Below, one piece after another: positions 2,805 through 49,850 of a stretch of 64,000 bases of DNA. The notes beneath the pieces are model-generated. The model ran no database searches. It worked only from the letters and a program-made list of their open reading frames with translations, and was not told the DNA's origin. The DNA comes from Mytilus trossulus. Taxonomy: Eukaryota. The stretch spans positions 42,904,001 to 42,968,000 of the forward strand of contig NC_086373.1 of NCBI RefSeq assembly GCF_036588685.1. The letters run 5' to 3'. The stretch's first letter is position 1, and the number at the start of each line of letters is the position of its first letter. A program made the translations under genes and the position numbers.

Positions 2805-5800
2805 TTACTGTGGCGTTGGTGCAGTCGGTTGTTCGTTTGGCTTAGTTTGATAGGATGCTTCCTCGTACGATGGAGGATTATATGCTATATTAGAATAACC
2901 CGCCATAGGGGGTTGCTGCGTTGGCTGGCCGGTTGGGTAAGTTGGCTGTCCGGCTGGGTAAGTTGGTTGACCGGCTGGGTAAGTAGGATATGTGTACTGT
3001 GGTTGATAGCCTGGCTGTTGTGGATAGTATGGAGCACTGTAGGCTTGTTGTTGAGCTGTAAATTATATAAAGAATATAGATACACGCAAGTTTAAAAACG
3101 CTATCGAAAGTTCATTTTCTAATTTAGGTTGTCTTTGACATAAATAAATAGATCTTTCAGGCTTTAATGCTAAGGTTGCAAGTGTCTATTGTCGTTCGTT
3201 GTTCCCCTGTTCCTTGGTATTACGCGACCCAATGCCTCGCGTGTTGTATAAAATACATTGCTTTGTCCATTGACGAAACTTATTTGAAGTGTTCACTTTA
3301 CTCTCTACTCAATAGAACTGTTGCAACATTCAACTCCTTGTTATGTAATAGGTTATGTAAAACCAAGATTTACACCGTGTCATGGGTTATAATCCAAATT
3401 AGTTTATTGTTAAGTTGATTTTCCTTCCTTGAGATATTTTTGGATATATGTGAAAGTATGTGGTAATCATGAAAATCTCAAAATAGTAAATAAAACTTAA
3501 CATTTTACTTATTTCAAGATTGATGTGGATAAATTGGTTGATATGTGGTTAACATTTGTTTGCACCTGTCCTATGTCAGGAACTTGATGTTCAGTGGTTG
3601 TCGTTTATTGATGATTCAGACGCGTTTCTCGTTTCTCGGCGTTATGTATTCGGGTTTAGTTTTCTGTAATTAGTTAATACTTCAGTTTCTTTATGTATAT
3701 CTCTTTCATATTCATTTGAAAAAATTTACTGTTTGTAATAACATGAATTGTTCTATATAATAATAATGTTCCTATCCCGGGCATAAAAACAATGCCGTAT
3801 TTGGCGAAACCTTTTCAACTTTTGATCTTCAGTGCTGTACAACTTTGTACTTTTTTCACTTTCAATCTTTTATATCTGGGCGTCACTGGTGAGTCTTGTG
3901 TGAATAAGGCGCGTTTTTGGTGTATTGAATTTTAAACCTGATGCTTTTTGTTATCTATTAATCATGTTTTTCTTTGTCTAATATGTTCTCCTATTTATTT
4001 GTATTGTAGTCCTGTAATATTATGTTGTCATTTCAATGTTATATTTAACTTTGCCATTAAAGTGCGAGGTTTGGCATGCCACAAAACCAGGTTCAACCCA
4101 CCACTTTTATTCCCCTTTAAAAGTGTCCTGTACCAAGTCAGGAATATGGCCATTGTTATATTATTGTTCGTTTCTGTGTGTGTTGCATTTTAACGTTGAG
4201 TCGTTTGTGTTTTCCCTTATTTTTGAGATATTGAGATAAGACGTGGCACGGTATTTGTCTATTCAAAATTCATGTATTTGGTTTTCATGTTATATTTGTT
4301 ATTCTCGTGATGTTTTGTCTGATGCTTGGTCCGTTTCTGTGTGTGTTGCGTTTCGGTGTTGTGTCGTTGTTCTCCTCTTATATTTAATGCGTTTCCCGCG
4401 GTTTTAGTTTGTTACCCCGATTTTGTTTTTTGTCCATGGATTTATGAGTTTTGAACAGCGGTATACTACTGTTGCCTTTATTTCTCGTTTGCAGAGTCAT
4501 TACATGATAAAGACTTGCAATATTAGTTAGAATTCAAATTTTTTGTATCATATATGTGTTTAAAAATAAGACATTACCTTTGCTAGAGTCTACTGACAAT
4601 GATTATGGTTAGGAAGGAAATTCAGGTCTGACTATAACAATACCAATTATTTTAAGTCTTTCTGGTTACGGAAGGCTGTACTGATATCGATAGTTCGGTA
4701 AGATCTGTTTACTGCTGGTTGGTCTTCTATTTCAACTCGTTTTTTTTTATTATATAGGTTGTACCGTTGGTTTAATTTCCTGTTTGAATGGTTTGACACT
4801 AGACATTTTTAGCGCGATTTGTTATAGCTTGTATTTCGGTGTGAACCGATGTTCCTTGTTGAAGACCGTTATTTGTCCTATACTATAATTGTTTACTTTT
4901 ATAAATTGTGACTTGGATAGAGAGTTGTCTAATTGGCACTCATACCACATCTTCTTATATCTATTTTCAAATAAACTTACATGCATTGGTAGTCACTGTA
5001 GAGACTGATTGATTATTAACAATTGTTGATCCATTGTAAGCTGGACGTCTTTTACAGAATCTACATAACAAAACCATTACCACAATACAAATTACGAAAC
5101 TGATTCCTCCTCCGATAGCTGAACCAATTATTCGTGCGGTGCTCCTGTAATATTTCCACATTTTAAATTAGTTTCACCATTATTTATCAATGTTGTACAA
5201 ACGTTTATACTAGCTTATTTACGGAATAAAAGTTCACTTGATAACTCCAAGTTTAAAGTCGAAAAATTTAGAGAAAAAAATAATGGCCGTAATACGCTTC
5301 CGTACTTTTTCACACGGTATGTTAATAAGAAATTTATTTTCAACATTTAAAAAAATCGTTTATTTCAGCTTAGACGTCAATTACAAATGACAAGTTACAA
5401 GTTCATATGTGAGAAGACCAAGTTCGCCATGCGTTGGTCGACGATTTAGTTTGAATATAAATGCTAGTTTTTCCCCTTTGAGTTTTCTCGGTTAAAAGGT
5501 TTCATATCGCAATACAAAAATGAAGCATTGATTTTCTTATTAATAAGTTACTTACCAATGACTGCCATAGGTGTAGTAATAATAGCAGTAATAACTACTG
5601 GTGTAGTAATAACATGTAGCCGTGCTCTGGATCACTACAAAAGAACAAAATTAATTACAAATCATATATATACATTTATATCGCTATTTTGTGCATTTTT
5701 CCTTTGATCTTTTTTTGTAATATTTGTTTATATCATGCTACTCGCTTGAGATGGAAAATATCGCTAGAAACTAAGGAGGCACGTGGCGTTGCTAATGAAA

Positions 5801-8800: not shown

Positions 8801-9843
8801 ATTTAAAAGGTGTGGTGAATCACACCTTCTATAAATTTTAAAATGAAAATAATCAGAAAACTTAAAATTAACAGTTTTAAACAAGGACGATCACGATAAC
8901 GATAAAGGAAAGGACAAAATCAGTAAATTTTATATCAATGAACATGTTGACAAGATAGAACAAGTTAACGGTATAGGAAAGTAATCTTCAATTGATATAC
9001 GATCATACATGTATACATGTAAACAGAAAAAATAGTGTTGACAAGGGCGATAACCGAAAGTATCACCTACAAGTATAATGATAAAATCGATCCACGTTAG
9101 TTGTCTTTATATGAGAGTCAAAACCAACTTAAATTTAGTATTATATTAAAATAGTAAGATATTAAAAGGACACTGTTCATCATGTCATGTATATTTATTT
9201 TCAAATTGTACATATAATAATGGTTCATTAATTATCTGCATAAATATTCTTTTGTAACACAGTTGGTCAACTAACCCATAACTTTTAATCGATATCATTT
9301 CTTCTTCTTCTTTAGGTTTTCAGTAGTCCTTCAATGATCTGAAGATTATTTACTGTTTGCGCGCGCAGCGTGGCCTATATATATATTTACAAAAACAAAA
9401 GGGCCAAAACAAAAACAAAAATATTTGGAAATAAATTTGAGGTGCATAATTTATTAAAATTGTGATTAAAACTATGTACATAGGCTAATAATGAGTTAGA
9501 TGAATTTGTGGAGAACAGCTGGTGTGAGCTGTTCTCTGAAAGTGTCGACTGTGGCGACAGCGACTGTTTGCATTGGCAATAAGTTCCACTGAGTTATGGT
9601 ATATGGAAAAAATGAGTATTTAAATGTATCTTTTTTGGTTGAAATGTGTCTAAAAGTATAATTATGGTTTTTGCGTGTTCTACTGTCTGATGGTATGAGA
9701 ATAGCCGATGGTATAGCTACGATTTGATGTACTATTTTATTTCATTTGTATTGACATGTGACTTCCTTCATAAATTATATAAAATTCTACCTACCAGAAG
9801 CAAGAAAAGTAAATAAAAACAAATACAACTGTCGTCCTTCCAT
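2805..9843 (-). CDS. CYYR1/Shisa-like Cys/Tyr-rich type I membrane protein, paralogue 1 (180 aa, 4 coding exons)
   Basis: Exons 9795-9843, 5556-5634, 4981-5144 and 2805-3055 join with GT-AG introns in phases 1,2,1 (543 nt). Protein: MEGRQLYLFLFTFLASVIQSTA (signal peptide), TCYYYTSSYYCYYYYTYGSHWSTAR (ectodomain), IIGSAIGGGISFVICIVVMVLLC (TM), RFCKRR..., QQQAYSAPYYPQQPGYQPQYTY(PTYPxGQ)3...NPPSYEEA...EQPTAPTPQ*. Family assigned from architecture only. Confidence 0.85.
6471..7393 (-). mobile_element. Non-coding retrozyme/PLE-like insertion: partial tandem repeat with a hammerhead motif and a 16-bp TSD
   Basis: CCAACATCAATATATA at 6455-6470 and 7394-7409. 6471-6835 is repeated at 7147-7393. A hammerhead-like motif lies at 6959-7003 on the minus strand. 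Confidence 0.65.
7645..7950 (+). repeat. Dispersed SINE-like repeat (related copies at ~1320-1600, 50650-50822, and 36840-36980 reversed)
   Basis: Shared GTTTAACCCCG...CCTGTCCCAAGTCAGGAGCCTCTGGCCTTTGTTAGTCTTG...CATTTCCATTCTCAATTTTA. Confidence 0.6.
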
Positions 9844-9935
9844 TTTGAAACTTCTTGGTAATTGTACTATTTCACGGATGTTTGATTTTAAAAGGCCCAC
9901 TGATCAATAGTAGAAATTCAAATACCTGAGTTCTA
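9844..9935 (-). promoter_or_regulatory. Conserved proximal promoter/5'UTR block of the paralogues (also ~23475-23565 and ~32720-32815)
   Basis: Minus strand GCCTTTTAAAA.CA.ACA.CCGTGAA...TTCAAAATGG is shared by all three genes, with a TATA-like TTTAAAA about 45-55 bp upstream of the ATG. Confidence 0.5.
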
Positions 9936-10690
9936 TAAATAACCCTTAAGGTACATAAGTATATTTATAAATTTTAAAATGTAACGGTATACATTCAAAA
10001 ATTTATATAAGTCCACTCGATGTTTTATATTAAGTAAGACCACAAATAAAGGATCGCAGGTGTAGGTACCGTCTAACGTATAACATTTTATTTTTTCTAA
10101 ATGGGATCATTTTTTATTTATTTCCCTCTTTTGGGCTAAAGAATAAAAAAGGTCCCAAAAAGTGAAAACATCTCGAGTCTGTGGGTTTTTTTTCTTTAAT
10201 TTTGAAACTTCTTCACCAAACGATGTGTACTCAAATGTTATCTTCATAAAACATATAACAAACTAGTTTATCTGAAGATTTTTACGACTTTTTCTTTGGG
10301 CTTGTGAGAAACCGGATTAAGAATAAATTATGACTCGCATGCACATGACCTCATGTGACAATAAGACAAGAAGGAGGCGTGGTACGGTACGATTGACAAC
10401 TTGATAACCGCGAAAGACAAGGATTGTAACTCCTGTTACGCGTTTTATATGACGAAGTTCACTGTGACACATTACGGATTTCAAAAGATGGACGAATTGT
10501 TGTGATTTTTCTCTTTTTTTCAGAAAATGTATATTATAAAACTGAGATAATCCTATAAACTTTTCCAATAACATTTTGGCAAGAGGGTTACTGCAAATTT
10601 ACAAAGTACAAATATATATATACATTATAATGATTGATTGATTGTTGGTTGCTTAACGTAACATTATGAAAATCAATTTATATATGGGCC

Positions 10691-11135
10691 TAGAATCATA
10701 TTTAAAACAGTGTAGTCCTGGCCATTGATTGACGACCTAAATTATCCCATCGACTGGTACAGATTAGGTGAACGTTTGTCGGTAACAATCACTGCTCACT
10801 ATGTAATTGTTAAAGACACTGAATCTGTGGGGTCACCAAAGGTTCTCAACACATAAATAAAGCAATTCGAAAAACGAATCCGGAATGATATGATGTGTTG
10901 ATTTATATCAATAATATAAATCAAAACATAAAGGTTATTCCTGAATAATTGTTCGAATTATTTAATTATTAAAGGCGTTAAGAACCTTTGGTGACCCCAC
11001 AGTTTAAATTCTATAATAAGTAAGAAGTGAGCAATGGTCGTTACAGACAAACGTTCACCTAATCTGTCCCAGTCAATGGGACAATTTAGGTCGTCAATCA
11101 ATGGCCAGGACTACACTGTTTTGAATATGATTCTA
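10691..11135. mobile_element. MITE with ~110-bp TIRs (TAG...CTA)
   Basis: TAGAATCATATT..AAACAGTGT.GTCCTGGCCATTGATTGACGACC at both ends, inverted. Internal IR TGTGGGGTCACCAAAGGTTCT. A second copy lies at 57022-57465. Confidence 0.85.
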
Positions 11136-12124
11136 TATACATCGATAAAAAAAAACACACACACATGACTATAAAATGAAAAACTTTATTTTTAAAAATT
11201 GTATCAATGAACAGCAAAGCATTATAAAACTTTATAAAAGCAATTTAGATTTAAGCATTAGAAATAAACGACTTGTTGACTATAAGTGACGTCAGAAAAG
11301 TAAACTTATTTTTCTGAAATAAAAAATACTGTAAAGTTAAAAGGAAAGAATACTTTATTTTGATACATTTTTGATACAAGTTGATTGTCAAATAAAGGCA
11401 GGAGGGATAACTTGAGTGCTAAATTTTGAAAAGCACAATGACATATGTATCGCGTACCGTAAGTACCATGTGTATATTGCATGTCTTAAACAAACTTCTG
11501 TTTTTTTCCCCGGGTTGGTCGTTTTCGGTATTATGACTGCAACAAGAATAGTCAGTAAGTCCAACTAGCCTGTCGAATAACCGACAGTTTTGTAGAAATG
11601 TCAGAGTGTTTTCTTCTCCAATTCACATTTGACTGATATATATTTAAAGTTGTTGTATAATTCTTGCCAGACGACAATTATAATCAAAGACGTAATATGA
11701 TCAGACAATAGTGTTGCTCTTTATACGAACATAGTATATTATTAGAACAATCTCATTACTTTCTTCTCTGTTATTGTGAATTGCGGTATAATTTGCATTT
11801 TCAAAGTTCTGATATTTTACAGTTTAAATATTAATATATTGAAATCCATACCCCCGTATGTACAATTCTTGGATGATAAAAAGCATTTGTTTTATATGTA
11901 TTGAGACATACTCAATAAGAAAATGAATATGAAAAAAAAACTTTAAAAATTTTCTTGTTATTAATTATTTTTTCTGATAAGCGGAATATGTATTGGTGAA
12001 TCGAATGACCATATTCACAATGCTGTCTTTTCTTTTGTTATTGAAGTAACTTTGTTAGATTCGTTTTGTTATAAGTCTTCCGTTTATATAAATCAATTTG
12101 TTGTACAATGTGCTTGCGAATCAT

Positions 12125-15100
12125 CTACTGCATGGGTGCAGTCGGTTGTTCATTTGGCTTAGTTTGATAGGCTGCTTGTTCGTACGATGGAGGACTGAAA
12201 GCAGTATTAGAATATCCCGCCATAGGGGGTTGCTGTGGTGGCTGAACGGTTGGATAAGTTGGCTGACCGGTTGGGTAAGTTGGTTGACCGGCTGGGTAAG
12301 TTGGCTGACCGACTGGGTAAGTAGGATATGTGTACTGTGGTTGATATCCCGGCTGTTGTGGATAGTATGGGGCACTGTAGCCTTGTTGTTGTTGTTGTTG
12401 TTGAGCTGTAAATCAAGCAAGAAAATAATACACTGAATTTTAAAATACTATTGAAAGTCATCGGCATAAATGGATTGTACTTATGTAGCAGTCTTTCTTT
12501 TTTCGCGTACTTTATATTAAGCTGATGTTCTCATTAATTATACGTTTTCAGTTTACATATAAGTGAAGCCTTTTGAGTCTCCTTTGGGTGTCATTTGAGC
12601 TTGTAATATTTCAACGTTCCTCTTACAATTTATTAATTAGAACATGTTTTCAAAATATTTAATGAAGCAAGTTGAAACTGCATACATTTGCATATTGACG
12701 TATTCTCTATATCGACTTTATCTTTTGTAGACTATATATGTCTCCTTTCGAGTTTTATTTTTTATACCGTTGCATGGTAGAATAAAAGTAATGTGATCTG
12801 AATCTGATGGCACATAGTTAACTAGACATCAAATACTTGTACCGAATTTGTTAAGAGGATTTCATAATAAATACTACATGACCATTGCTAAATGTGTGTG
12901 GTCGTAAAATTTAAAGTATACTTATTCCTTATTAGTTAATATTTGTGACTTGGATGGAGAGTTGTCTGATTGGCACTCATATCACATCTTTTTATATCTA
13001 TTTTCAAATAAACTTACATGTAGTCACTGTAGACACTGCTTGGTTATTTACAATTGTTGACCCCGCGTAAGCTTGACGTCTATTACAGTATCTACACAAG
13101 CAAACTATGACCACAATACATATTATGAGGCTGATTCCCCCTCCGACCGCTGATCCAGCTACTCGTGTGGAGCTCCTGCAATATTGTTCACATTTATCTA
13201 ATGTTCCTCCTATTTTTAACTTGTTATATTAACAGAGATAGGGTTCATCCCTCTCCCCCTTTTTCCCATTTTGTTTTACTTGAAAAAAGGGAAATCAGAA
13301 TTCAAAGGTGTCATAACCTACTTGGATTTGAATTATAAAAAAATAAAATAAAAAATAGTTCTATACACGAACTATACAATTGCCCTCTGCTTATAATTTA
13401 TAAGAAAAATATAGAGTATAGAAATTATGAAGAAAGTATACTGTTCTTCGTCGGCATTTTCTTTAATCAATCAGAAAATTTTATTTGTTGAGCTCGATCC
13501 GGCAATACAGTTGACTTTATTTTTTTCGTATGCATGGTAACGAAAAATTCCCTTAAATAGAACTGTATCATCTGCATACATAAGAAAATATAAATAGAAA
13601 AAATAAAAAAAGAAGATGTGGTATGATTGCCAATGAGACAACTATCCACAAAAGACCAAAATGACACAAACATTAACAATTATAGGTCACCGTACGGCCT
13701 TCACCAATGAGCAGAGCCCATACCGCATATAGTCAGCTATAAAAGGCCCCGATAAGACAATGTAAAACAATTCAAGCGAGAAAACTAACGGCCTTATTTA
13801 TGTAAAAAAATGAACGAAAAACAAATATGTAACACATAAACAAACGACAACCACTGAATTACAGGCTCCTGACTTGGGTCAGGCACATACATAAATAATG
13901 TGGCGGGGTTAAACTTGTTAGCGGGATCCCAACCCTCCCCCTAACCTAGGACAGTGGTATAACAGTACAACATAAGAACGAACTATAAAAACAGTTGAAA
14001 AAGACTTAACACATCAGATAGACAAAAAATAAAAGTGAACGTGGCCGGGTACTTATACATCCCGACACAAAAAGACACAATGAACAGATCTGAGAGTACT
14101 TGCAGTTATCTGACAGCTAGTTCAAAGCCTTTAACAACTAATAACAAAATCATGCCTCTAAGACTAAGCAATTAATCCGTACACATCCAACATACAATGG
14201 ATTTAGTGTAAAGACGTCATAAACAGCCAGAGAAAAAACATGACCTTGTGCAATGCCAAGTTACAGGTATCGGCAGATTGTACATCCATGAAAATGTATA
14301 TGTATATAACATACTAGTAATATTTAGTTAGCTTTTAATCTACTTATAACAAAGTCAATATGTATACCAATAAAAACAACATTCAATGATCTTATCACAA
14401 TGTTAAATAGGTAACCTTTAAGAATAAGTTTATTTAAAGGAGCGACAAGTTTACATGGATCATTTCTAAATTTCCGGGCACGGTTAACAACATTTCCGTA
14501 AAAATGAGGATGTTCTATCCCGTTTGAAATAAGTTTTCAACAGATACAACCAAACTTCAAAACCAAATCTTTATATCTATGGAAACATTTAGTAATTTAT
14601 GGTAACGATATCCCTGGTTTAATAATTTACTAGTAATGGAAAATTAACAATAAGGAACGAAAAAATCGTCTCTTTTGTGGAAAATTTTAGTGTGTAGTTT
14701 CCCGTTTAAAACCGAAATATCTAAATCCTGGAAAGGACAGTTTTTCCGAATACATTTGATTTATTTAAAGTAAGTTCCTTGGAGTAAATTTCAGCAGTAT
14801 GTTGAGAAAATTCTTGATTATTTAAGGAAAAATATCATCAAGATAACGGTAAGTGTTGTTGAATTTAACAATTAAATGCAATTTCGACGGGTCTTTACTG
14901 AGTTTAGTCATACACTGTGATTCGTAACAGTACAAACACAAGTCTGCTATTAAAGGGTCACAATTAGTGCCCATGGGGATACCTACAACCTGTCGATAAA
15001 CTTTGTTGCCGAAAAGTACGTAAATATTATCAAGGAAAACATTAACAGCCTTAATCATCTCATCACACCTCCAGTAAGTATATCTTGCAAATTTACCTTT

Positions 15101-18100: not shown

Positions 18101-21100
18101 GAGCCAGAAGACAGATATGATAGACGAAAGTGGATAACAGACATGAAGTTGACCTTTCCTGTTTCAATTTACACCTATCAACATGGAAACTATATGGGTA
18201 ATCTGAATTTTCTTTGGCGGATACCCGAAGATGAAAATCTTAGAAATGATATGAAACAGTTATCTGCAGTTGAAAAACTCAGAAAAGAAATTCCTATTTA
18301 TTCCTCAAGACAGGTAAGGAAAACATTTATTGACAGGTACACCAGAACAGGACTTAAACCAGCTGTTTTACGGGAGATGTTCAGATTCTTGACAAATGAT
18401 GATACAGCCCCAGAATCTTCCTTACAAGAGAATGTCGACATCAGAGTCATAGTAAGCATAATAGATGCTGACGATCCAGATCTTTTATATGATCTAAGAA
18501 AAAATAATGGTTATCCAAAATGTGGAGATTTGGAGCCTTTTTGGAAAGAGCTGAAATCCTTTCTGAATGAAAAGACAGGTGTACATGAAAGACGCGGAGC
18601 CGACCATGAGTACATGCATTGTGCTATATCCCTATCCGATTTACGTAACCAGATAGCATCATGCTTGACAAACATAGCCCGCATTCCAAGTTTGTCTACA
18701 ATAAGGTACAATTTTTGGCCACCAAGTCCAACTCACAACAATGCAGCAAATTATACTGGGAGGTTTAAGGTCAAATTTGCAGTACAACAAAGACTTCTGC
18801 ATGGCCAACATGAAGACAAATGCTTTGCGACACTTCAATACAGTTTATTTAAAGAAATGGTTGTTAGATGGAAAGGACATGCAAGATTTATTTCCTTAGA
18901 TGATAAAGCCATTGTACCAGTTGGAGAACCTGCTCAGCCATTATCTACTGGAGTGAGACCTCACAACAGATCTTTGACACTTGGGGTTGATCATTAGTTG
19001 CACTCTATCATGATTTTCATGTGTGTGGAATTGTTCCATCTGTGCTTTTTTCTGTTTATATTCCTGATGACAGACAGTTTCTACGAGGGGCCAGTATTTG
19101 TAACTTTAAAAGATAAAATCTTTCAGCCTTCAACAGCTATACGTCATGCTGTTGAATCAGTTGACATACTTCGTAGTCTGACAGGGGACATTAATCTTGA
19201 TGTACACAGATGGCGTTCCAGATCACAGGTCTACATTTTGGTCAGTGCAAAAAGCCTGTATACTGATATTTATTTCTTTAGACTTGGACATGCTGGTCAC
19301 TGCACGCACAGCACCAATGGCTAGCTATGCCAATCCAGCAGAGAGAATAATGAATCTCGCTTTGCAAAATGTAGCCATGGAGAGACCAGACATGATAGAA
19401 GACTATTGAAGAATGATGAAGAGAAACGGCTCAATGACCAAAGTTAGGAACATAGACGAGAAAGAACCAGATTTCAAAATTGCACTATTACAGTCAACAA
19501 AACATGTTATATCAAAACTTGATGACAGATTCAGTATACTGAAGTGGAAGGACAGGAATGTAAACATGCACGAAAGTGCAAATATTGATGATATAGAAGA
19601 CATTGGTCATTTGCTGAGTATTCTTGACCACCTGGATGGAGGCCTCTCAATTGAAAAACAGAAAACAAAAAAAGGATATAGAGAAGTTTAGATGCCTGAA
19701 GAATTTTATAAATCTGCACACCAGAGAAAGACAATACACATACCAAATAAAGAAGTGTGGAAACTGTGCCTATTGCACAATAAATCCCCCTCGTCTATCC
19801 CAAGAGTTGTTTGATAATCTACACTGGCTGCCAGATCCTGTCCCAGTTCAAAAAGATAGTGATGAATACAAGTCTTTTGATGATGTCTATGGAGTAGATT
19901 GTTATCAACGGTACCAGGATTATAAATTAGTACGCCAGACGTGCGTTTCGTCTACACAAGACGCATCAGAGTAGAAACAGATGATTCTGGGAGATCCAGC
20001 TTAGTCAGCAAAAACGTCCCTACATCAGCTGATCTTTGTCACAAAGGAGGTTTTGTAGCAGCAAGAGCGAGATCATTTATTATTTGCAGAGATTGTGGGA
20101 AGAGGAGAGTAGTGTACTCTGGCAAGCGTCTAACTATAGACCAGATGAGATAAATAGAGCGGATACAAGAAGAGTTCATATTTACTTGTGGGGCCCCATT
20201 ATTTCCAGATGGAGTCATGAAAGAGAGTGTTTATGTCAGAGAAGGTCAATCGTGTAACAGTGAATGGAAACTACCTATTATTCAGATGTAATTGGATTGA
20301 ATACACCAGTTTGTTTCTTCTGTGGTGATACTGAGGTGATCACAAACCAAGAAATACAGAACCTCAAACAAGAATATGGAATCGTTCGACCTATATGCGA
20401 CACATACTTCCAGGGTGGAAAGAGACCAGCAATGACGAATGCACTAAAAACCAAACAAGAAAATGAGATAAACATACAATTTTATTTCAAAAACAGTCTT
20501 TAATAAGCACACAAGAAGTGTAAAAACATTGACATTGCATTAATAAAACTGTCAAAGACATTTACATTTGACAATATTAAAATATTGTTTTAAAACATTG
20601 TTTGATGATTTTTTGGGGTCTCCCATGATGGTGGTATACAGAAATCAGTTAATATATATCAGAAGGGTACTATAGTCATTTACCTTAAAAATCAGTAATT
20701 TTTGGGCCTTTTTTTTGACCGACCGACCCGACCTTTTCAGATGAAAAATCCGTAAACCAACAAATTGAAAAAAACATGCCTAATGCTGTTAACCCATATT
20801 TCTGGAAACTCGCCATGACTCAATATACGGTTAAACAGTTTGCAAAATACTGGTTTGATGAAGTTTATGCTCGTTAATATAAAGTTGTTATAATAACTAA
20901 AGGACCAAAAGTTAAAAAAAAATTGTATATGACGTGCTTTTTCTGCTTTGTACAAAAACCAATGCTCGAAATACAATAAAATTTGTTTGCACATGCGAAC
21001 GTTGACTACTGCAGAAAAATGAATTTTACCAATATGGCATGCATTGAATGTATTTTATTTTAGTGCCTGTCTGCCTAAGAACCAGGCAGTGGTGAAAACA

Positions 21101-23474
21101 TGACCAAAACAAAACCACCCAATTTGACATTGATTTCAGTTCATAATATTTAGTTATGCACAAAAATAACCTTCATTTCCATTTTTTGTTCTGGTAATAG
21201 AAGATACAATTTGGTTGAAATGCACTAGAAATTAACGAATAAGGGGACTGGATAACTCTATAATTTGCTATCATCCTAACCAATTTTCTAACCAAGTTAT
21301 TTGATATTACCAGACACACACAAACGAAAGACTAATACTTTTTAAATCTGGATGATGGTTGGTATCAAATAGCATGATTAGGTCGGTGGGTTTTTTCATG
21401 TTTTAATTTTTACCTTAATTGCCTGATTCTTACAAAGACTTGCTTTTTAGAAATATACAATACAAGTGCATTGACTTTACACATCAACGATATAAGGATG
21501 AGGCTTCGAATCCTTATATCGTTGATATGTCAATTCAACGCACTAGTATCGTCTTTATACTACAAAACAAACATTGTTGTTTAATTTGTTAATGTTACTA
21601 TTTGATTTAGATATTGTGAAACTTCCCCTTTTATGAAAAAACATTCTTTCATGAATGCAGGCGGAGAAATGTACAACACAATCGAAAATGTACATTACCT
21701 GTTGAAATGGGCAATCTATGGTGAACGAATTTGTTTGATAATGAAATAAAATATCAAGAATAAGCATTAACATAATAGTTTATAATTTGCAAACTGAAAA
21801 TATTAACAAGTGAAATATGATTTTTTTTCTCTAAAAATTGCAAAAGCAATATTATTAAGTTTGAGTCGTTGTATACATTGTAAACAAGAACAGGTCGAAT
21901 AGGTCGTATTCATAATTAATTATAATTTCGAAAATTTCTATTTAAATATTCATGAGGAAAAGTGATATCAGGTCAGTGACTGTATATGACATAGAACGCA
22001 TTTTTGACTGCTCAAATAGAACGCGTGCAGTATAACTTAAAATACTTTCGAACTCCTAAATGAATCGAAGCACATGCTGTTTCTGACTACAATGTGTGAC
22101 AATTCGCAATTGACATATTTGACATAGATACGACAACGTTCATGTTGGCTTTTCAAAACCCCTTCCTCTAAAATAACACATAGAAAGCAGTGTGCTTGTT
22201 CACAAACATAAAAGAGAGGTTCACAAAAGAGTCTACATTAACGCTCTACACCTATACACACCGGACATAGAAATAACCGTAACTGTCCTAATCAGAATCG
22301 AAATAATTGATGCAAGCTATATATATACTTTATTGTAGTTTGAACATAGATAGGCATTATCGTGATTATTTTTGCCATTATTTTTTAAACATCCACAAAA
22401 TCTTGGTATTTTTTTAAAAGTAACTTACCAGTATGAGTAGTAATAATAACAGTAATAACCACTATATGTGTAGTAGTAGCACACAGCCTTACACTGTATC
22501 ACTGAAAAAATAAACATAATAGCATAAAGATATTTTGAGAGTGAAAGGTACAGATTAAGGCTAGCACTCCAACCTAAAATTGACAAAATAATCTGAAGTA
22601 ATATTCTTTTCTTGTATTTTTTTAACATTGATTTCGTCTCTCTACGCTCTGTTGCAAATGTAGTTTGAATATATATAACCCCTCTAAAAATCTGTCAGAT
22701 CTGTCATGAGAAAAATCTAGAATTATACTTCTCTTTAGTTGTTTTTTGACGGAATCTGTCTTACTTTAGAACCATTTGGACAGTAACATTTTAAGGAAAT
22801 TTCTTATTTTATAAGGAACAATTATATCCTCTTTCTATAGTATGCACCAGTACTTGTAAGAACATGTTTTCTAATCTATTTTCGAAAATTAAATCGATAT
22901 AATTTATTTTGTGACTATATTTATTTAACCACTTTTTAAAATATTTGTTTGTCCATTGAATTAATCTAATATAAAACTGTAAAGAAGATATTGATCATGA
23001 AATTTCTTTTTTAACATAATATTTTGGTAAAATCAAAATTGTATTATTAATACACGTTTGATCAAATAAAAAATAACTAGTCTTAGTCGACGTTTAATGT
23101 GCATGCGTAATTGCTGCAGCTGTGTCAAATTTTAATGATATATCACAAGTACCTATTTCGAAATGGGCCGAAGCATTTTAATCAACTTAATTATGATAAG
23201 GATAATAGAATATAGCATATAGAAGAAAAAAATATTAAAAGATGTATATTTCATGTATTTCATAAAATTGAAATGGTCAGCGTGTTACACTGATGTGGGT
23301 TTGTTTTTTTTATTTTATATGGCGTGTTTTTAATCGACAGTATTATGGTATCTACTACGTATATGTAAGTTTTGTATGTTCATTTGTTCTCACATTTGCC
23401 TTAACATTCATTAAGATTTACCTACCAGAAGCAAAAAAAGTAGATACAAACAACCAAAACTGTAGGCCTTCCAT
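12125..23474 (-). CDS. CYYR1/Shisa-like Cys/Tyr-rich type I membrane protein, paralogue 2 (186 aa)
   Basis: Exons 23426-23474, 22429-22501, 13018-13175 and 12125-12405, GT-AG, phases 1,2,1 (561 nt). Protein: MEGLQFWLFVSTFFASVIQCKAVCYYYTYSGYYCYYYYSYWSSTRVAGSAVGGGISLIICIVVIVCLCRYCNRR...Q7GYSAPYYPQQ...SPPSYEQA...EQPTAPMQ*. Intron 2 is ~9.25 kb and filled with TEs. Confidence 0.85.
13600..15670 (-). mobile_element. Penelope-like element, 5'-truncated RT plus 3' non-coding region
   Basis: ORF 14822-15571 contains YLLPKLHK, SFDFSTLYT, GIPMGTNCDPLIADL and YRYLDDI. A degenerate continuation (CPF.DLDI...KRDDFSF) lies at 14640-14800. Confidence 0.8.
15760..17050 (-). mobile_element. Second copy of the same HINE-like family (~2 repeat units, 5' hairpin missing)
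   Basis: Reverse-complement match to 51760-53997, including the GAC/GGAC microsatellite at ~16980-17030. Confidence 0.8.
17526..20780 (+). mobile_element. Degenerate Zator/TP36-like DNA transposon
   Basis: TIR core TTTGTTGGTTTACGGAT near 17542-17558, with its reverse complement near 20748-20764. Fragmented transposase at ~18000-20460 shows SLDDKAIVPVGEP, HDFH, TDGVPDHR and RTAPMASYANPAERIM, plus C-terminal CxxC motifs. Confidence 0.75.
19899..19968 (-). mobile_element. 70-bp retroposed hammerhead-containing fragment with a 7-bp TSD
   Basis: GAGTAGA at 19892-19898 and 19969-19975. The insert RC is (C)TGATGCGTCTTGTGTAGACGAAACGCACGTCTGGCGTAC...ATCCTGGTACCGTTGATAACAA. Its removal restores transposase YGVETDDSG. 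Confidence 0.75.
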
Positions 23475-23870
23475 TTTGAACAGGAAGTTCTTATTTTGTC
23501 TATTTCACGGCTGTATGATTTTAAAAGGCTGAATTGATTAATAGGTAGAAATTTAAGTACCTGAATTTATCAAATATCACAACAGTACAAGTGCAGTATT
23601 TAATGAATACACATGACATGCAATATGAAACCTATATGACGTGGTATCGTTGCAAATAAAAACTACCCACCGTTTAATGAACAAGGATGTAAACTACTCA
23701 CTGCATGTGTTTACCTGGGGGGAAACATTTATATAAATAAAACAAATGATACAACAAAAATAGCGAAATATTGTTTGTGCATTTCAAAATGATTAGAGTC
23801 TAATAAACCTATCAACAGTTCCAATAACAGATACTCTCATCATAGATACCAGGATTAAAAATTTATATTT

Positions 23871-23914
23871 ACGCCAAACGCACGTTTCGTCTACGACAGA
23901 CTCATCAGTGAAGC
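23871..23914 (-). ncRNA. Minimal type I hammerhead ribozyme, intact core, GUU site
   Basis: RC: GCTTCA-CTGATGA-GTC(TGTCGTA)GAC-GAAA-CGTGCG-TT-TGGCGT. Confidence 0.65.
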
Positions 23915-25944
23915 TCGACTGAAAAATGTTTTTTTTTTAAAGTACGAAGTTGAAGAGCATTGAGGACCATAAATTCCTAAAAGTGTTGCCAAATACATCT
24001 GAGGTAATATATTCCTGAGGTAGAAAAGCTTTGTTTTCAAAAATTCAAAGTTGATTGTTGATTGGTGGCGGTCAGTTGTTATTGGTGGAGGAAGCCGGTA
24101 GAGAGCAACCGACATTCTTTTCGCATCCACAATCTCAGTGTTGACTGGCTAGTGATACAGTAGTTCGAATCCTTATACATGTATAATTTGGCACCAATGA
24201 ACCGACTAGCAGTTGACACTTTTTTTTTACACAGTTAAGTGGCAGGTTTTTCTTGTGGTTTTGGTTACACTTTTTGTCCTTCCTTTTGTTCATTCTGATC
24301 TTCAGTTGTAATAAGACTGCCAGGTTTATCGACTTGGAGTCATATGATTTGTCCTCATTATTTGCAAGTGTTAGGTTTAGATATCATCAACATTCGTTTA
24401 TTATGCAGACAACGCGTCGACATTAAGATGGGTTTATTTTCCCCCTTTTTATCACAGACACTTGTCTCAGAAAAAAAAATTCCTATACACCTTAAAAAAA
24501 ATCCTATATACCTTAGGAATTTTTTTTTCTGAGACGAGTGCCTGTGCTTTTTATGCTGGACGTTAAACATCCATCTATGATGGATGGATGATCATGGATG
24601 GGTGGATGTTTAACGTCAGTGGAATATTGTAGCAAAGCCACCAACGGGCCATCATTGGGTCTCCAATACAGCGAGAAAATCCCTTGTGTTTTGGAAATAA
24701 TTATAATGCTTGTTAATGTAATATGTTATTTGACTCTAATGGCGATACACGTTGGTTTATTTCATCGGATATTCCATTTTTTAAACTCTTAAGAACTTTT
24801 TAGAACGTTATTTATAACTATTTGTTTAATAAAGTTCTAAAGTTCTATATATTCGTCGGTCAAAGAAACCCAAACACATGACTAAAAAATGAAAGACTTT
24901 ATTTGTATTAATGAATATTAACAGCAGTATAGTATAAAACATTATAAAGCCATTTAGATGATATATTTGATATAAAAATATAAACAGCTGGTCACTTTAA
25001 AAGAGGGACGAAATATATCAAATGGACAATCAAACTCATAAATCGAAAATAAACTGACAACGCCATGGCTAAAAATGAAAAAGACAAACAGACAAACAAT
25101 AGTACACATGACACAACATAGAAAACAAAAGATTGCACAACACAAACCCCATATTTAAATGACGTCAAATATTAACTTATTTTTTTGGGAAATTAAAAAA
25201 TACTGTAAAGTTAAAAGTGAAGAATACCTTATTAAGATTCTTTTTATAAAAGGTTGATAAAGGCAGGAAAGATAACTTGAGTGCTAAATTGGAAAAAAGC
25301 ACAAAGACACCGTATATGTATCGCGTATCGTTAATGTACATATAGATACAACTATTAAATACATAAGTAGAGCAGAATAAGTTTCAACTATCCTATCAAA
25401 TATCCGAAATTCAATTTATAGACATTTCGTAGCAGTTTCTTCTCAAGTTACTGGTTTGATGATGGAAGTTTTTAACGACCTTGACTTGCTATACAGCCCT
25501 TGCACGATCGGTCAAATTACTCGTTTAACACTGAGACTATAGGAATATTCACAGAACCAATTTTTTTTAATGGCATAATTCTTGACATACGACAATTTTA
25601 TTCAAAGTATTTGATAATATATGAGAAAAAAAGTATTATTGATCTTCATAAAAAAAAAATCGCATAATTTTACCCCGGATGTACTGCACTTTTATTTCTG
25701 TTTATTTAGACCAACATAATGAGGAACTGAATTTTATGAGAAAAAAAGCAGCTTTACAAAATTACACAGTAAGAGTTATATAGAATGAATCTGAAATCAA
25801 GTTTCATGTTATTTAAAAATTATGTTTTCTGGTTAATCGAGTGATACCTTTACCATTTTTTAAATGAAGTAACATAGTTAGACTTGTTATGCTATTAAAC
25901 ATCCGTTTACATCAATCAAGCTGTTGTACAAAGAGCTTGCGAAT

Positions 25945-28900
25945 CTACTGCATGGGTGCCGTCGGGTGTTCATTTGGCTTAGTTTGATAGGCTGCTTGTT
26001 CGTACGATGGAGGACTGAAAGCAGTATTAGAATATCCCGCCATAGGTTGATCTGCTGGCTGACCGGTTGGATAAGTAGGCTGACCGGCTAGATAAGTTGG
26101 TTGACCGGCTGGGTAAGTAGGATATGTGTACTGTGGTTGATATCCCGGCTGTTGTGGATAGTATGGAGCACTGTAGCCTTGTTGTTGTTGAGCTGTAAAT
26201 CAAACAAGAAAATAATACAATGATTTTAAAATTCTATTAAAAGTACATTATGTGAATTAAGATCGGCATAACTCAGTTGTACGTTGTACTCATTCTAATC
26301 CGTTTTTCGATTGTTTTATACTTTAAAAGCTGATATTATGATTAATTGTATGTTTTACTAGTATAACATATTAGTGTAGCCGTTTGATTCTCCTTTGGGT
26401 GTCGTTTGAGCTTAAATAATTACATATAACATATTAGTGTAGCCGTTTGATTCTCCTTTGGGTGTCGTTTGAGCTTAAATTTATTTTATCAATGTCAAAT
26501 TATTATTAATAATATGCAAACGGTCCTCGGACCATTTAATCATTTCAACATGTTGTCAATAAACAGTAAAAATCACAAAAATACTGATCTCCGAGGAATA
26601 TTCAAAATGGAAAGTCCCTAATCAAACGGTAAAATCAAATGATAAAACACATCAAACGAATGGACAACACCTGTGGTGTTCCTGAATTAGTACAGGCATT
26701 TTCAAATGTAGAAATTGGTGGATTGAACCTGGTTTTGTAGCGCTAAACCTCTCACTTGTATGACGGACACAATAAGTAGAATTGTCAAAACATGAGTACA
26801 GCAATCATCACTGAATTTTCTAAAAAGTTATAATTTCACATGGGGAATGGTGGTATGGCAAGGTTAAAGAATTAAGAGTTTTATTAGAACTAATTTCAGG
26901 ATCTCAAAGAGACCGAGATTTAAAATTATTCAAGAGTCCATATGGTTAATACCACTATGCGAGTAAAATAATTTAGTCAAAATATTTAATAAAGCAAATG
27001 TAAACTGCATTTACGTCTTGACAATTACTTTATATCCCCTTTATTTTTTGAAGACTATAGTGCTCCTACCCATTTTTTTCTTGCGATCAGCGCATCGTAG
27101 AAAACAGGTTATATGATTTTCATTTGAAGTCACATGTCAGCATACAAAATTATATAGTTGCACATGAAATTGGCCAATTCATGATCACTTTATATTATCA
27201 TATATACTACATTATTGATTTTAAATATGAATACTTAATCTAAAGACACTAGTGTTTCTTTATTATAGATAACCGCCTCGGTTGTCTCGCCTAGAGTGTT
27301 TGATGTCGTTGGTTAGAACCCTATGCGGCCTCAAATCAAAGAATTGTAAATTGTAAATTGCTGTTTGTCCGTTAAGCAAGTGACATTTATGACAGTTAGA
27401 GCAAATATGATCGCCTCGCAGTCAGAATAATGTTTCTGGGTATGGTGACATATCTTGCTACAGACTGTTACCATCGTGAACTGTGAAATAGCATGTTGTA
27501 AATCTGGTCTACAATTCGTTCGCTATGCCGTGTCTGTTGTGACGTTTTTTATTTTACTGAACGGAATCTATGTATAACTGGTAAATCATTAAGCTAGAGA
27601 TATCGGTACCACAAATTGCTTAAAACCTTTACTTAATTCTTCAAAAGATATAAAGATTTGGTTGTACTTATTTCGAACGGGATAGCACATTCTCATTTTT
27701 ATTGACATGTTGATTACTGTGCCCGGAGATTTCGAAAAGATCCTTGTAAACTTATCGATCCTTTAAATAAACTTGTTCTCAAAGGTAAATAGTTATCAAC
27801 CAATTCAACACTCTAATGAGATCATTGAATATTGTTTTATTGGCTCTTATATCGATTTTGTTATCAATAAATAAAAAGCAAACGAAAAAATATACAAATA
27901 CATATTCATGGATCTACAGTCTGTTGATACCTGTATCTTGGAATTGCACAAGGTCATATTTTTCTCTGACTATTCACACCGTCTTTCTAATAAATCCATT
28001 GGAAATTGGATGTGTACTGATTGATAATTTAGTCTTAGATTCATGAATTCTTTAATTAGTTATTAGTGGCTTTGAACTATAGCTGTCTGTAACTGTGAGT
28101 ACTCTCAGATCTGTATTTAGTGTTTTATTCTGGTTGGGATACCCAGCCACTGATTTTTATAGATCGTTCTTATGCTGTACTGTCCCAGGTTAGGGGAAGG
28201 GTTGGGATCCCGCTAACATGTTTAACCCCGCCACATGCTGTATTTATGTGCCTGTTTCAAGTCAGGAGCCTGTAATTTAGTGGTTTTCATTTGTTGATGT
28301 GTTACTAATTAGTGTTTCGTTCCTTTTTTGTACAAAATTAGGCCGTTAGTTTTCTTGTTTAAATTGTTTTACGTTTGTCATTTTGTGGCCTCTTATAGCT
28401 GACTTTGTGGTATGGGCTTTGCTCATGGTTGATCTCGGATATACGGTGACCTATAGTTGTGGATAGTTTCTGTGACATTTGGTCTCTTGTGGAAAGTTGT
28501 CTCATTGGAAATCACACCACATCTTTTTTATAAGCAGGATTTATATTTCATATCACATAATCATGATCTTTTTTTTTTGAATATCAAATTATTTGCAATG
28601 TACTGGACGTTGAACAACTATCAATTCATCGTTACTAGAAAACTCTTACTTCCAATAGTAGTAACTGTAGGCATTGATTGACCAGTAGTAAATGTTGACC
28701 CCATGAAAGCTGGACGTCTATTACAGAATCTACACAGCAAAACCATTACCACAATACACACTATGAGGCTGATTCCTCCCCCGACTGCTGATCCAATTAT
28801 TCGTGCGGTGCTCCTGAAATATTGTTCATATTTATTTCATGCTCTATCCGTTTTTTACTTATTATATTGAAAGATGTAGGATTAATTCCCTTGTTTCAAT

Positions 28901-31900: not shown

Positions 31901-32719
31901 ATCAGTGACGCTCTTAATCTTATCAAAATATTTATAAAGCCAAACAAGCACAAAGTTGAAGAGCATATATCGGGAACAACTTCCTTATTATATATTGTTA
32001 TGGTCCGGAAATGAAATAAATAATAAATCGATATATTTTATAAACGTGACTATATATTGGTTTCATAACTTTTAAAAATATTACTATTGAAATAATATGA
32101 TATTTTTTTTATAAATATTTTGATTTGGTAAAATCTATCCCCAATCCTATGACACGTACGATCAAAAACAAAGAATTTCTGATTGACTGTTCAATGCGAA
32201 ATTGCTACAACTGATTTAAATTGAATATCACAAGTAATTATTTCGAAATGGGCCGAATGATATAGGTGTTGTCATCGTCGACAGCTATTTATTTTTTTTG
32301 ATGTTTATTATTTTACATTGTATTGTATATGACACTGGAATATTTACTGTAAATGAATGATTGTGTATATGTGAAATATAGTTATAGTCATAATTGTTTA
32401 TTTTGTTGTATGTCACAAACTTAATGTTTAAAGTTTATATGGCAATAAATATTTTGAATTATATGTCTCCATTATTAAAGTATATAAGAAAACAAATAAA
32501 ATAAAATGGCCACAGTGTGTTATTTTTACCTATTTAAATCTCGATTATTATGGCATTTGACACATGAATATATAAAGTTTTAGATGTTTAACAAATTCAT
32601 CTTTTAATGTACAAGGAAATAGTGTTTCATTTGTTCTTACATTTGCCTTAATTAATTAATCTCTACCTACCAGAAGCAAGAAGAGTAAATAAAGATAAAC
32701 AAAATTGTAGGCCTTCCAT
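25945..32719 (-). CDS. CYYR1/Shisa-like Cys/Tyr-rich type I membrane protein, paralogue 3 (178 aa)
   Basis: Exons 32671-32719, 30439-30514, 28650-28813 and 25945-26192, GT-AG, phases 1,2,1 (537 nt). Protein: MEGLQFCLSLFTLLASVIQCKASCYYGNNCYSYYYYYYSHYWSTARIIGSAVGGGISLIVCIVVMVLLCRFCNRR...SPPSYEQA...EHPTAPMQ*. Confidence 0.85.
26362..26480. repeat. Local tandem duplication of ~60 bp in paralogue 3 intron 3
   Basis: TATAACATATTAGTGTAGCCGTTTGATTCTCCTTTGGGTGTCGTTTGAGCTTAAAT occurs twice. Paralogue 2 has one copy at ~12555-12602. Confidence 0.85.
27500..27800 (+). mobile_element. Penelope-like RT C-terminal fragment
   Basis: Degenerate RYRYHKLLKTFT.FFKRYKDL...GIAHSHFY, similar to the reverse complement of 14400-14640. 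Confidence 0.5.
29184..29911 (-). mobile_element. Non-autonomous Helitron
   Basis: On the minus strand it begins TC and ends CTAG, has the sub-terminal hairpin CCCGCGATATCACGGG, and sits between A and T with no TSD. Confidence 0.8.
30552..31455 (-). mobile_element. Helentron/HINE-like element of a different family with ~160-bp tandem repeats and an (ACAG/ACGG)n microsatellite
   Basis: Terminal hairpin ATACGTCCCGTCAAAATTTTGACGGGCGTAT (31420-31450), microsatellite at 31333-31400, repeated AAAAAGTATACAGAT units, and hairpin GCGCCATGAGCGC with sub-terminal ATACGCCCG at the other end. Confidence 0.72.
31868..31911 (-). ncRNA. Minimal type I hammerhead ribozyme, intact core
   Basis: RC: GCGTCA-CTGATGA-GT(ATTATGTAG)AC-GAAA-CGCGCG-TC-TGGCGT. 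Stem I is GCGUCA/UGGCGU, the cleavage triplet is GUC, and helix III is short and palindromic. Confidence 0.75.
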
Positions 32720-38817: not shown

Positions 38818-39399
38818 CAGTTTCTAAATGACTCAGAGGGGATTTTTATTGAATTATTATATATTTACGAAGTATTAAAATAAATGTCATAAAAGGTCTA
38901 ACTAATTGTTACATTTGTTTCATTCCGGGTTTTAAATTTTAGACTTCAGTTGGTTTAAGATATAAAAGATCTTATATCAACAGGATGTTTGGTAATGCGT
39001 TTTTTTTTTTATTAAAACCCTTTATTTTTCTTTAGGTATATAAGGAATGAAGATATCCATCAATCTTTGAACTCTGTTAAAGATTAACCGGAACTATTGT
39101 GAGCCTTAATCCATTAATTGGAAATCTGATTCATTTAGTTGAGGCTTATGCTAGTATGACCAGGTTGTTGGTCACCTCTTTCGTGTTCATTAGTTTCGGG
39201 GGAAAACTATCGGTAGTTTAGATAAAGTCCAAGTCTTTGGAAAGTTTACATATTTATTTCACATCCATATATTTCAAATATCAAAACATAACTGATTAAC
39301 AACATAAAACAAATATAAAATACAAATTCAAAAGACTAATTGACATACGGAAAATGAACCAATCAAATATCTTTTAATTAAACAATATTAATTCGCGTT

Positions 39400-49300: not shown

Positions 49301-49850
49301 TACTAACTCCAAATCTATCTTGTCCTACTGCATACACAAGTGTTGACAATGCTGATATCTTCCTTTGTACGTCTCCTGTAAGTGTGTTATCCAAGATCTT
49401 GTCTAGGTCTTCATCAAAGATCTCCCATCTCCTATCATCTGTTGGTGGCCATTGTATCTTTTCTTTCCTGCTGTCTGCTGAAGGTGTTCTCGATGTTCTC
49501 TGCTGGTTTTGATTCCCTTGCTCCTCCTCAATGTTGATCTGAGTAGCTTCATTAGGTAAGAGGTCCTCAGCACTGTGGTGTGCTTCCTGGCTGTGGTCCT
49601 CCGTCGTCTCATCAGTGTTAACTGTGCGTTCCCTTTGCTGCTTCCCAGATCCACACTTAGTTCTTGCCTGGTGTATCTTTGCAAACCTTCCCACAATGAC
49701 ACTTGGTTTCTGCCGTTGTTCCAGTCAAAGTCCGTTGGATTAGCCGAGTTGTTACCGTTTTGTCCTGCTCAATGGGTCTCTCATCCTCCCCCCCTCTCGG
49801 AAGACCCTGGGGGTATTGCTCTTTATTCTGTTCTGTAGCTATATGTACCA
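46340..49850 (-). mobile_element. HERO-like (R2 group) non-LTR retrotransposon with RT, CCHC knuckle and restriction-like endonuclease; frameshifted
   Basis: ORF 46453-48885 has RT motifs WLDLANAYG, GIVTGCTIS and GFMDDL, the knuckle CPLCG..GTLQHVLSGC, and the RLE motifs RHN and LRPDMV...IIELTVPWE...ERKRAKY. Upstream ORFs (48930-49694, 49657-49860) carry a broken N-terminal zinc finger, KCHCGKVCK / KIHQARTKC. Ends are approximate. Confidence 0.88.

What the first reader, a model, noticed from the sequence alone, without database searches (positions are those of the whole stretch)
2805..32719. Tandem family of miniature Tyr-rich receptors whose tails pair two ESCRT/NEDD4 late-domain motifs (PPSY + PTAP)
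Seen: three intact 4-exon paralogues, none shown whole by the ORF track. All keep PPSY (e.g. 2865-2876) followed 12 residues later by PTAP (2817-2828), just before the stop, while the ectodomain diverges. Known: PPxY binds NEDD4-family WW domains and P(S/T)AP binds the TSG101 UEV domain. The pair occurs in retroviral Gag late domains, Ebola VP40, ARRDC1 and LITAF/SIMPLE. CYYR1/Shisa-like proteins carry PY motifs. Inference: an expanded set of adaptors that capture something at the surface and route it into multivesicular bodies or budding vesicles.
Basis: partly seen in the sequence, partly recalled or inferred. Interest (0 to 1): 0.8.

Follow-up and report, generated by a model that had tools for sequence, protein, structure and literature searches.

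The report
Mussel ubiquitin-to-ESCRT sorting adaptor trio
Three neighbouring mussel genes encode tiny membrane proteins whose tails end in a conserved three-part signal that likely recruits a ubiquitin ligase and the cell's vesicle-sorting machinery, a variant of a known family of membrane adaptors rather than a new class of receptor.

Summary
There are three intact 4-exon minus-strand paralogues (178-186 aa), each ending PPSY-x12-PTAP-x2/3-stop. Contigs of probable RNA runs join exons 1-3 of gene A, and gene C equals a RefSeq Mytilus protein.

They belong to a large molluscan Tyr-rich offshoot of the CYYR1/Shisa-like PY-motif adaptors. They have 2 ectodomain Cys instead of the defining 6 and miss the Pfam cut-offs.

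Motif identity among the three copies is weak evidence, because 40 of 90 tail 4-mers are equally invariant. Wider data are stronger:
- P[ST]AP stays exactly 12 residues behind PPxY in 3 of 5 distant clade tails, with T/S exchange; 2 of 5 lost it.
- It occurs in 7 of 46 relatives against 1.2 expected.
- The only distal-tail lysine sits between the motifs in 15 of 16 sequences.

Likely mechanism: a NEDD4-family ligase binds PPSY and ubiquitinates the lysine, TSG101 binds PTAP plus ubiquitin, and the adaptor with its client enters multivesicular bodies. 'Receptor capturing a ligand' is unsupported: the ectodomain is about 24 residues. PPxY plus P[ST]AP is already known in cellular proteins (TMEM55B). 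No binding was tested.

The parts
9795..9843 (-). Gene A exon 1, coding part (ATG, predicted signal peptide)
   Evidence: contigs X5 rec19 and X7 rec27 cover 9795-9950 with 0 other letters
5556..5634 (-). Gene A exon 2: Tyr-rich ectodomain with 2 Cys
   Evidence: joined to exon 3 in 3 of 4 runs
4981..5144 (-). Gene A exon 3: transmembrane helix with GxxxG, juxtamembrane Cys and basic residues
   Evidence: hydropathy 2.73
2805..3055 (-). Gene A exon 4: Pro/Tyr/Gln tail, 21-nt repeats 2920-2984, PPSY-Lys-PTAP, stop
   Evidence: contigs cover 2500-2988/2997 in 3 of 4 runs
2865..2876 (-). Gene A PPSY
2841..2843 (-). Gene A lone distal-tail Lys (+11 from PPSY), predicted ubiquitin acceptor
2817..2828 (-). 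Gene A PTAP
23426..23474 (-). Gene B exon 1, coding part
   Evidence: model only
22429..22501 (-). Gene B exon 2 (Tyr-rich, 2 Cys in the mature part)
   Evidence: model only
13018..13175 (-). Gene B exon 3 (transmembrane)
12125..12405 (-). Gene B exon 4: PPSY 12193-12182, Lys 12160-12158, PTAP 12145-12134
32671..32719 (-). Gene C exon 1, coding part
   Evidence: product equals P0002
30439..30514 (-). Gene C exon 2 (Tyr-rich)
28650..28813 (-). Gene C exon 3 (transmembrane)
25945..26192 (-). Gene C exon 4: PPSY 26013-26002, Lys 25980-25978, PTAP 25965-25954

Best explanation
The three genes encode small single-pass membrane proteins related to CYYR1/Shisa-like adaptors, whose terminal PPSY-Lys-PTAP cassette likely works as a ubiquitin-to-ESCRT hand-off that sends the protein and a bound client into multivesicular bodies for lysosomal degradation. 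Shown: gene structure, the motifs, their spacing and conservation, and the family link. Inferred steps: (1) the signal peptide is cleaved, leaving a loop of about 24 residues closed by one disulfide; (2) the GxxxG helix and the loop hold a client membrane protein; (3) a NEDD4/WWP/ITCH-type ligase binds PPSY(E/D) and ubiquitinates the only distal lysine and/or the client; (4) the TSG101 UEV domain binds PTAP and the adjacent ubiquitin; (5) the PxYP repeats upstream may add Ca2+-dependent ALG-2 binding. PTAP is an accessory booster gained and lost within the family; PPxY is the core.
For: Family link: Atlas feature hits are CYYR1-like and shisa-5-like mollusc clusters (0.95, 0.91, 0.90; the first may be the protein's own cluster). 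8 of 22 relatives scanned hit Pfam CYYR1 below its cut-off. The profile of the Mytilus proteins also retrieves 6-Cys members. PPxY is in 31 of 46 relatives against 8.2 expected, and P[ST]AP in 7 of 46 against 1.2 expected, while permuted controls give 2, 0 and 0 of 46; all 7 also carry PPxY. In the window's clade (support 100/99), distant tails P0016, P0034 and P0075 keep P[ST]AP exactly 12 residues after PPxY; P0016 and P0034 share only 4 of 12 spacer residues with gene C (read). S/T exchange recurs in two other pairs, P0020/P0023 and P0036/P0072. One Lys lies at +11 in 15 of 16 clade rows. Human CYYR1 binds WWP1/2 by PPxY, is ubiquitinated on K154 just after its last PPxY, and sits on late endosomes (PMC11399591). 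TMEM55B needs both PPxY and P(S/T)AP to recruit ESCRT (PMC10761734). The genome's TSG101 keeps Y68, N69, I70, T92 and M95 and, by my reading of the preceding exon, Y63-R64; these are listed peptide contacts (PMC7650771).
Against: No binding, localisation or client is shown. P[ST]AP is lost in 2 of 5 distant clade tails (P0015 and P0046 types) and absent from 39 of 46 relatives and 14 of 17 other putative loci in the genome. Two of the 7 hits (P0020, P0023) are close sisters in the tree, so there are about 6 independent cases. P0075 lacks the Lys. The window proteins have one PPxY, whereas CYYR1 binding depended on pairs, and WWP1/2 depletion did not change CYYR1 level. The window-type proteins hit no CYYR1/Shisa Pfam model (0 of 4). 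The profile match to a 6-Cys member covers only 28 transmembrane columns. TSG101 residues 141-143 were not examined.
Confidence: 0.55

Rival explanations
1. An ordinary PY-motif adaptor in which PTAP is incidental or dispensable; sorting relies on ubiquitin alone.
For: The motif is absent from most of the family and lost in 2 of 5 distant clade tails. Paralogue tails are 85-91% identical anyway. Short Pro-rich motifs recur in these tails.
Against: About six-fold enrichment over shuffles with flat permuted controls, a fixed spacer of 12, S/T exchange while the spacer diverges, and 2 synonymous against 0 non-synonymous differences in the PTAP codons (small numbers).
Confidence: 0.2
2. The cassette drives outward budding (ARRDC1/late-domain style), loading the Tyr-rich loop or a client on shed vesicles.
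For: The same motif pair is used by viral late domains (abstracts in search listings) and by ARRDC1 (recalled).
Against: The characterised relative CYYR1 acts at late endosomes and lysosomes. GYxx-hydrophobic sequences precede PPSY in gene A and some relatives (read; their role as lysosomal signals is recalled). There is no membrane-binding oligomerising domain as in Gag or VP40.
Confidence: 0.12
3. Variable recognition receptors: the Tyr/Ser/Gly disulfide loop acts like a minimal antibody loop that binds outside ligands or microbes and delivers them to lysosomes.
For: 10-11 Tyr and 15-16 Tyr/Ser/Gly among 23-25 residues. Among 9 gene-C-type records exon 2 has 5 of 27 substituted columns plus indels, against 0 of 54 in exon 3 (p=0.003). 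There are many loci with different loops.
Against: Exon 2 is no more variable than exon 4 (10 of 83; p=0.52). pN/pS between paralogues is 0.25-0.39, on an ambiguous alignment. Much of the variation is Tyr-run length. The loop is very short and membrane-proximal.
Confidence: 0.1

Closest known systems
CYYR1 and the Shisa-like/STMC6 family (WBP1, WBP1L, VOPP1, TMEM92)
   Same: Signal peptide, short Cys/Tyr ectodomain, one transmembrane helix with juxtamembrane Cys, Pro-rich tail with PPxY, and a lysine shortly after the last PPxY (K154 in CYYR1; PMC11399591).
   Different: 2 mature ectodomain Cys and a Tyr run instead of the six-Cys pattern; one PPxY instead of three; added terminal PTAP; below or outside the Pfam CYYR1 cut-off.
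SHISA5/Scotin and SHISA4
   Same: RefSeq names orthologues 'protein shisa-5-like'. Pro/Tyr repeats resemble the type-1-like ALG-2 motif described for Scotin (PMC5037681).
   Different: No Shisa cysteine domain; no Shisa Pfam hit.
TMEM55B, and LITAF/SIMPLE and ARRDC1 (the last two recalled)
   Same: Cellular proteins using PPxY plus P(S/T)AP together to bring NEDD4 ligases and ESCRT-I to a membrane (TMEM55B: PMC10761734).
   Different: Unrelated architectures; none is a miniature type I protein with the motifs at the extreme C-terminus around a single Lys.
Drosophila Commissureless / PRRG4 / yeast Rcr1
   Same: Short single-pass PY adaptors. The extended motif (PY followed by acidic and small residues) resembles that of Comm and PRRG4 (PMC5578492).
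   Different: No PSAP/PTAP mentioned in that paper (0 occurrences); different ectodomains.
Viral late domains (Gag, VP40)
   Same: PPxY and P(S/T)AP pair.
   Different: Host spliced genes with no viral feature; the order is PPxY then PTAP, 12 apart.

Membership tests
Shisa-like / STMC6 (incl. CYYR1) | N-terminal signal peptide | tested here: met
   Hydrophobic N-terminus and modelled helix 2-23; no dedicated predictor was run, so the cleavage site is inferred.
Shisa-like / STMC6 (incl. CYYR1) | Six-Cys ectodomain, C*C*CC*CC (PMC5578492) | tested here: not met
   2 Cys in each mature ectodomain; 6 of 44 aligned relatives show a six-Cys-like pattern.
Shisa-like / STMC6 (incl. CYYR1) | Single transmembrane helix with Cys near its end | tested here: met
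   Hydropathy 2.7-2.9; helix 42-72 at pLDDT 70-90.
Shisa-like / STMC6 (incl. CYYR1) | Pro-rich tail with a PY motif | tested here: met
   PPSY in 3 of 3; PPxY in 31 of 46 relatives.
Shisa-like / STMC6 (incl. CYYR1) | Pfam CYYR1, WBP-1 or Shisa score over cut-off | tested here: not met
   0 of 4 Mytilus proteins; 8 of 22 relatives hit CYYR1 and 1 hit WBP-1, all under cut-off.
Shisa-like / STMC6 (incl. CYYR1) | Common descent with six-Cys members | tested here: inconclusive
   Retrieved by one profile at E about 1e-4 to 1e-3, Atlas features; the base of the tree is unresolved; hhalign covers the transmembrane part only.
NEDD4-family PY adaptors | PPxY-dependent WW-domain binding and ubiquitination | not testable with these tools
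   Motif and nearby Lys present; binding untested.
TSG101-UEV ligands (late-domain type) | P[ST]AP in a disordered cytosolic segment | tested here: met
TSG101-UEV ligands (late-domain type) | Motif conserved beyond background | tested here: met
   3 of 5 distant clade tails at spacer 12; 7 of 46 against 1.2 expected; not universal.
TSG101-UEV ligands (late-domain type) | Motif-dependent TSG101 binding | not testable with these tools
   Only partial pocket conservation in the genome's TSG101 was checked.
ALG-2 type-1 motif carriers | PxYP-x4-YP and Ca2+-dependent binding | tested here: inconclusive
   PxYP in 27 of 46 relatives against 8.2 expected; spacing is 5 in the window repeats and exactly 4 in P0016 (read); binding untested.

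The most novel reading that the evidence does not exclude
Molluscs have turned the Shisa-like scaffold into a multigene set of miniature antibody-like sorters. A variable Tyr/Ser/Gly disulfide loop picks the target, and a modular PPxY-Lys-P[ST]AP cassette, gained repeatedly in different branches, hands it straight to ESCRT-I for destruction or shedding in vesicles.
Probability: 0.1. Interest if true: 0.75.

Novelty: new variant of a known kind. Interest (0 to 1): 0.4.

Why it matters
It points to an unstudied molluscan expansion of PY-motif adaptors (about 20 loci in this genome) in which ESCRT-I docking appears to be added repeatedly to a NEDD4 module. The natural variants (motif plus Lys, Lys only, motif only) give a ready test of how PTAP and a nearby ubiquitin cooperate in a cellular membrane protein. 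The logic itself is known from TMEM55B and viral late domains, so the surprise is moderate.

Tried and rejected
Fourth paralogue: none. Exon 4 finds 3 loci in the genome, the self-comparison of the window shows three exon sets, and 30 kb left and 10 kb right gave only one weak, unconvincing match.

Positive selection on the ectodomain: not seen between paralogues.

Folded ectodomain: the AlphaFold model has pTM 0.31 and only the two hydrophobic helices are confident, so no fold search was run. The PDB profile search gave only generic transmembrane-helix matches. Atlas structure hits were all under TM 0.4.

Expression: no run was on record as RNA, so level and tissue were not assessed.

P0014 (named DLG1 by its source) has a different C-terminus without the motifs. 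It was treated as a probably faulty model and counted as a miss (13 of 14 Mytilus-like records keep both motifs).

The family-defining paper (Pei and Grishin 2012) was not available. Earlier scan findings: nothing. No complex was predicted: no whole mussel TSG101 protein was in hand, and the pair would resemble solved structures.

Tyrosine sulfation or DOPA roles for the loop were considered from recall and set aside; there are no acidic residues in the loops.

Full report
OBSERVATION. Exon models built from the DNA give three intact genes: A (9843-2805, 180 aa), B (23474-12125, 186 aa) and C (32719-25945, 178 aa). All have GT-AG introns in phases 1/2/1, a spacer of 12 and 2-3 residues to the stop. 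Gene C is identical to P0002, RefSeq XP_063444445.1 of Mytilus trossulus. That is a predicted model and may rest on the same DNA.

SPLICING. Contigs of four runs (RNA by guess) were laid on gene A only. Intron 2 is skipped exactly in 3 of 4 runs. X5 and X7 each have one contig holding exon 1 and exon 3 with 80 and 75 letters between. Exon-3 pieces stop at the donor 4981 in 3 of 4 runs, and exon 4 with its 3' UTR is covered. The exact intron-3 joint is not among the rows shown. The exon-4 frame is backed by 13 of 14 Mytilus-like protein records from five named species and by the more distant P0016.

Identity between paralogues is 62-69% (signal), 54-79% (ectodomain), 65-73% (exon 3) and 85-91% (exon 4). 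40 of 90 four-residue windows in exon 4 are invariant. So the tail as a whole is conserved, and the three copies are not independent witnesses for the motifs. pN/pS is below 1 in exons 2-4.

WHAT IT IS. Each protein has a signal peptide, then a mature loop of 23-25 residues with 2 Cys and 10-11 Tyr. One transmembrane helix follows; its G49 is invariant and G53 nearly so across 44 aligned relatives. The tail is about 110 residues and disordered. Atlas features point to molluscan CYYR1-like and shisa-5-like clusters. The Mytilus proteins hit no relevant Pfam model (0 of 4), but 8 of 22 relatives hit CYYR1 under its cut-off. The profile retrieves 48 representatives, among them six-Cys proteins. 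The six-Cys pattern that defines Shisa-like/STMC6 proteins (PMC5578492, passages; PMC10531659, passages) is not met. I therefore call them a derived offshoot that works like the family, not strict members.

SIZE OF THE FAMILY. In the genome, exon 4 finds only the three window loci. A relative's transmembrane exon finds 21 candidate places, including a tandem cluster at C1:20.42-20.51 Mb (lower bound, some weak). Of 17 putative last exons I picked downstream of such matches, 14 carry PPxY and 3 carry P[ST]AP (unvalidated models).

IS PTAP REAL? I examined 52 relatives outside the near-identical Mytilus set; 6 fragments were dropped and 46 kept. P[ST]AP occurs in 7 against 1.17 expected from shuffles (p about 1e-4). 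Permuted controls occur in 2, 0 and 0, and all 7 also have PPxY. In the tree the carriers fall in six places, on an unresolved backbone and at different tail positions, which suggests repeated gain. Within the window's clade (100/99) there are five distant tail types. P0016, P0034 and P0075 keep the motif exactly 12 residues after PPxY, two of them as PSAP, though the spacer has diverged. The P0015 and P0046 types lost it. S/T exchange also separates P0020/P0023 and P0036/P0072.

The only lysine in the distal tail lies 11 residues after the start of PPxY, between the motifs, in 15 of 16 clade rows; the exception, P0075, keeps PTAP. Human CYYR1 is ubiquitinated by WWP1/2 on K154, just after its last PPxY (PMC11399591, section 5 read whole, other passages). 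The genome's TSG101 keeps the peptide-contact residues I could examine (contacts from PMC7650771, one passage). The 21-nt repeats encode PxYP units like the type-1 ALG-2 motif reported as type-1-like for Scotin (PMC5037681, passages). This is a weaker lead.

MECHANISM (inferred). A ligase binds PPSY and ubiquitinates the lysine and/or the client; TSG101 then binds PTAP plus ubiquitin, and the complex enters intraluminal vesicles. That UEV binds ubiquitin and PTAP at separate sites is recalled. TMEM55B shows both motifs being required for ESCRT recruitment by a cellular membrane protein (PMC10761734, passages). Against: one PPxY only, PTAP loss in sister lineages, and no effect of WWP1/2 depletion on CYYR1 level. 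Confidence 0.55. Rivals: PTAP incidental 0.2, outward budding 0.12, variable recognition loop 0.1. For the last, gene-C-type records differ at 5 of 27 exon-2 columns against 0 of 54 in exon 3, but exon 4 varies as much.

WHAT IS IN PRINT. Searches of the held library found no paper describing this molluscan subfamily or a P[ST]AP in it: 5 papers; 1 abstract book, not read; 4 papers; one notes Shisa-domain enrichment in mussel gills, PMC5549309, passages; PMC5911496 was a false match; 0; 7 listed; 20 of 34 listed; 20 of 19,015 listed, none with CYYR1; a weak search. The defining paper by Pei and Grishin 2012 could not be read and may already cover such members. No supplements were read. ARRDC1, LITAF and VP40 precedents are recalled.

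VERDICT. A real feature, correctly seen. It is a new variant of a known kind: miniature two-Cys, Tyr-rich PY adaptors with a conserved PPxY-Lys-P[ST]AP end. Interest 0.4.

Noticed in passing
G000:C10:33091477-33091677 and 33158347-33159299 (L077-L079): Two TSG101-like UEV genes lie about 68 kb apart; the second has Phe in place of the Tyr68-equivalent pocket residue.
   Followed up: partly
G000:C1:20420000-20515000 (L042-L053): A tandem cluster of at least 5 near-identical Tyr-rich family genes ending in PPxY motifs without P[ST]AP, plus one more divergent member with PTAP.
   Followed up: partly
P0004, P0007-P0010, P0012, P0013: RefSeq isoforms in M. edulis and M. californianus appear to mix exons of different paralogue types (for example C-type exons 1-3 with an A-type last exon): annotation chaining, gene conversion or real cross-paralogue splicing.
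   Followed up: no
window 5556-5634 and 5555-5707: Run X7 has an exon 2 about one codon shorter (Tyr-run length variant); a contig of X1 joins 5555-5707, including the end of intron 1, to exon 3.
   Followed up: no
window 12033-12602 vs 25856-26413: Exon 4 of genes B and C is 96% identical while their exon 3 is 79%, hinting at gene conversion of the tail exon.
   Followed up: partly
window 46453-49724 (-), 39382-40685 (+), 61211-63241 (+): Non-LTR retrotransposon-like frames: RVT_1 plus zf-RVT; RVT_1; and a 676-aa frame with a GDSL-lipase-like match under cut-off, probably a LINE ORF1.
   Followed up: partly
window 13176-22428 (gene B intron 2): A 9.25-kb intron swollen by repeats: a 273-aa and a 320-aa open frame with no Pfam hit, and an array of about 500-bp units (15922-16998) also present at 51778-53998.
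   Followed up: no
window 10691-11139 and 57018-57478; 54278-54922: Palindromic MITE-like elements; the first pair is 95% identical.
   Followed up: no
G000:C3:7085198 and 7088311; G000:C9:73664900-73665500: A duplicated identical last exon in one family gene; tandemly repeated exon-2-like sequence upstream of another.
   Followed up: no
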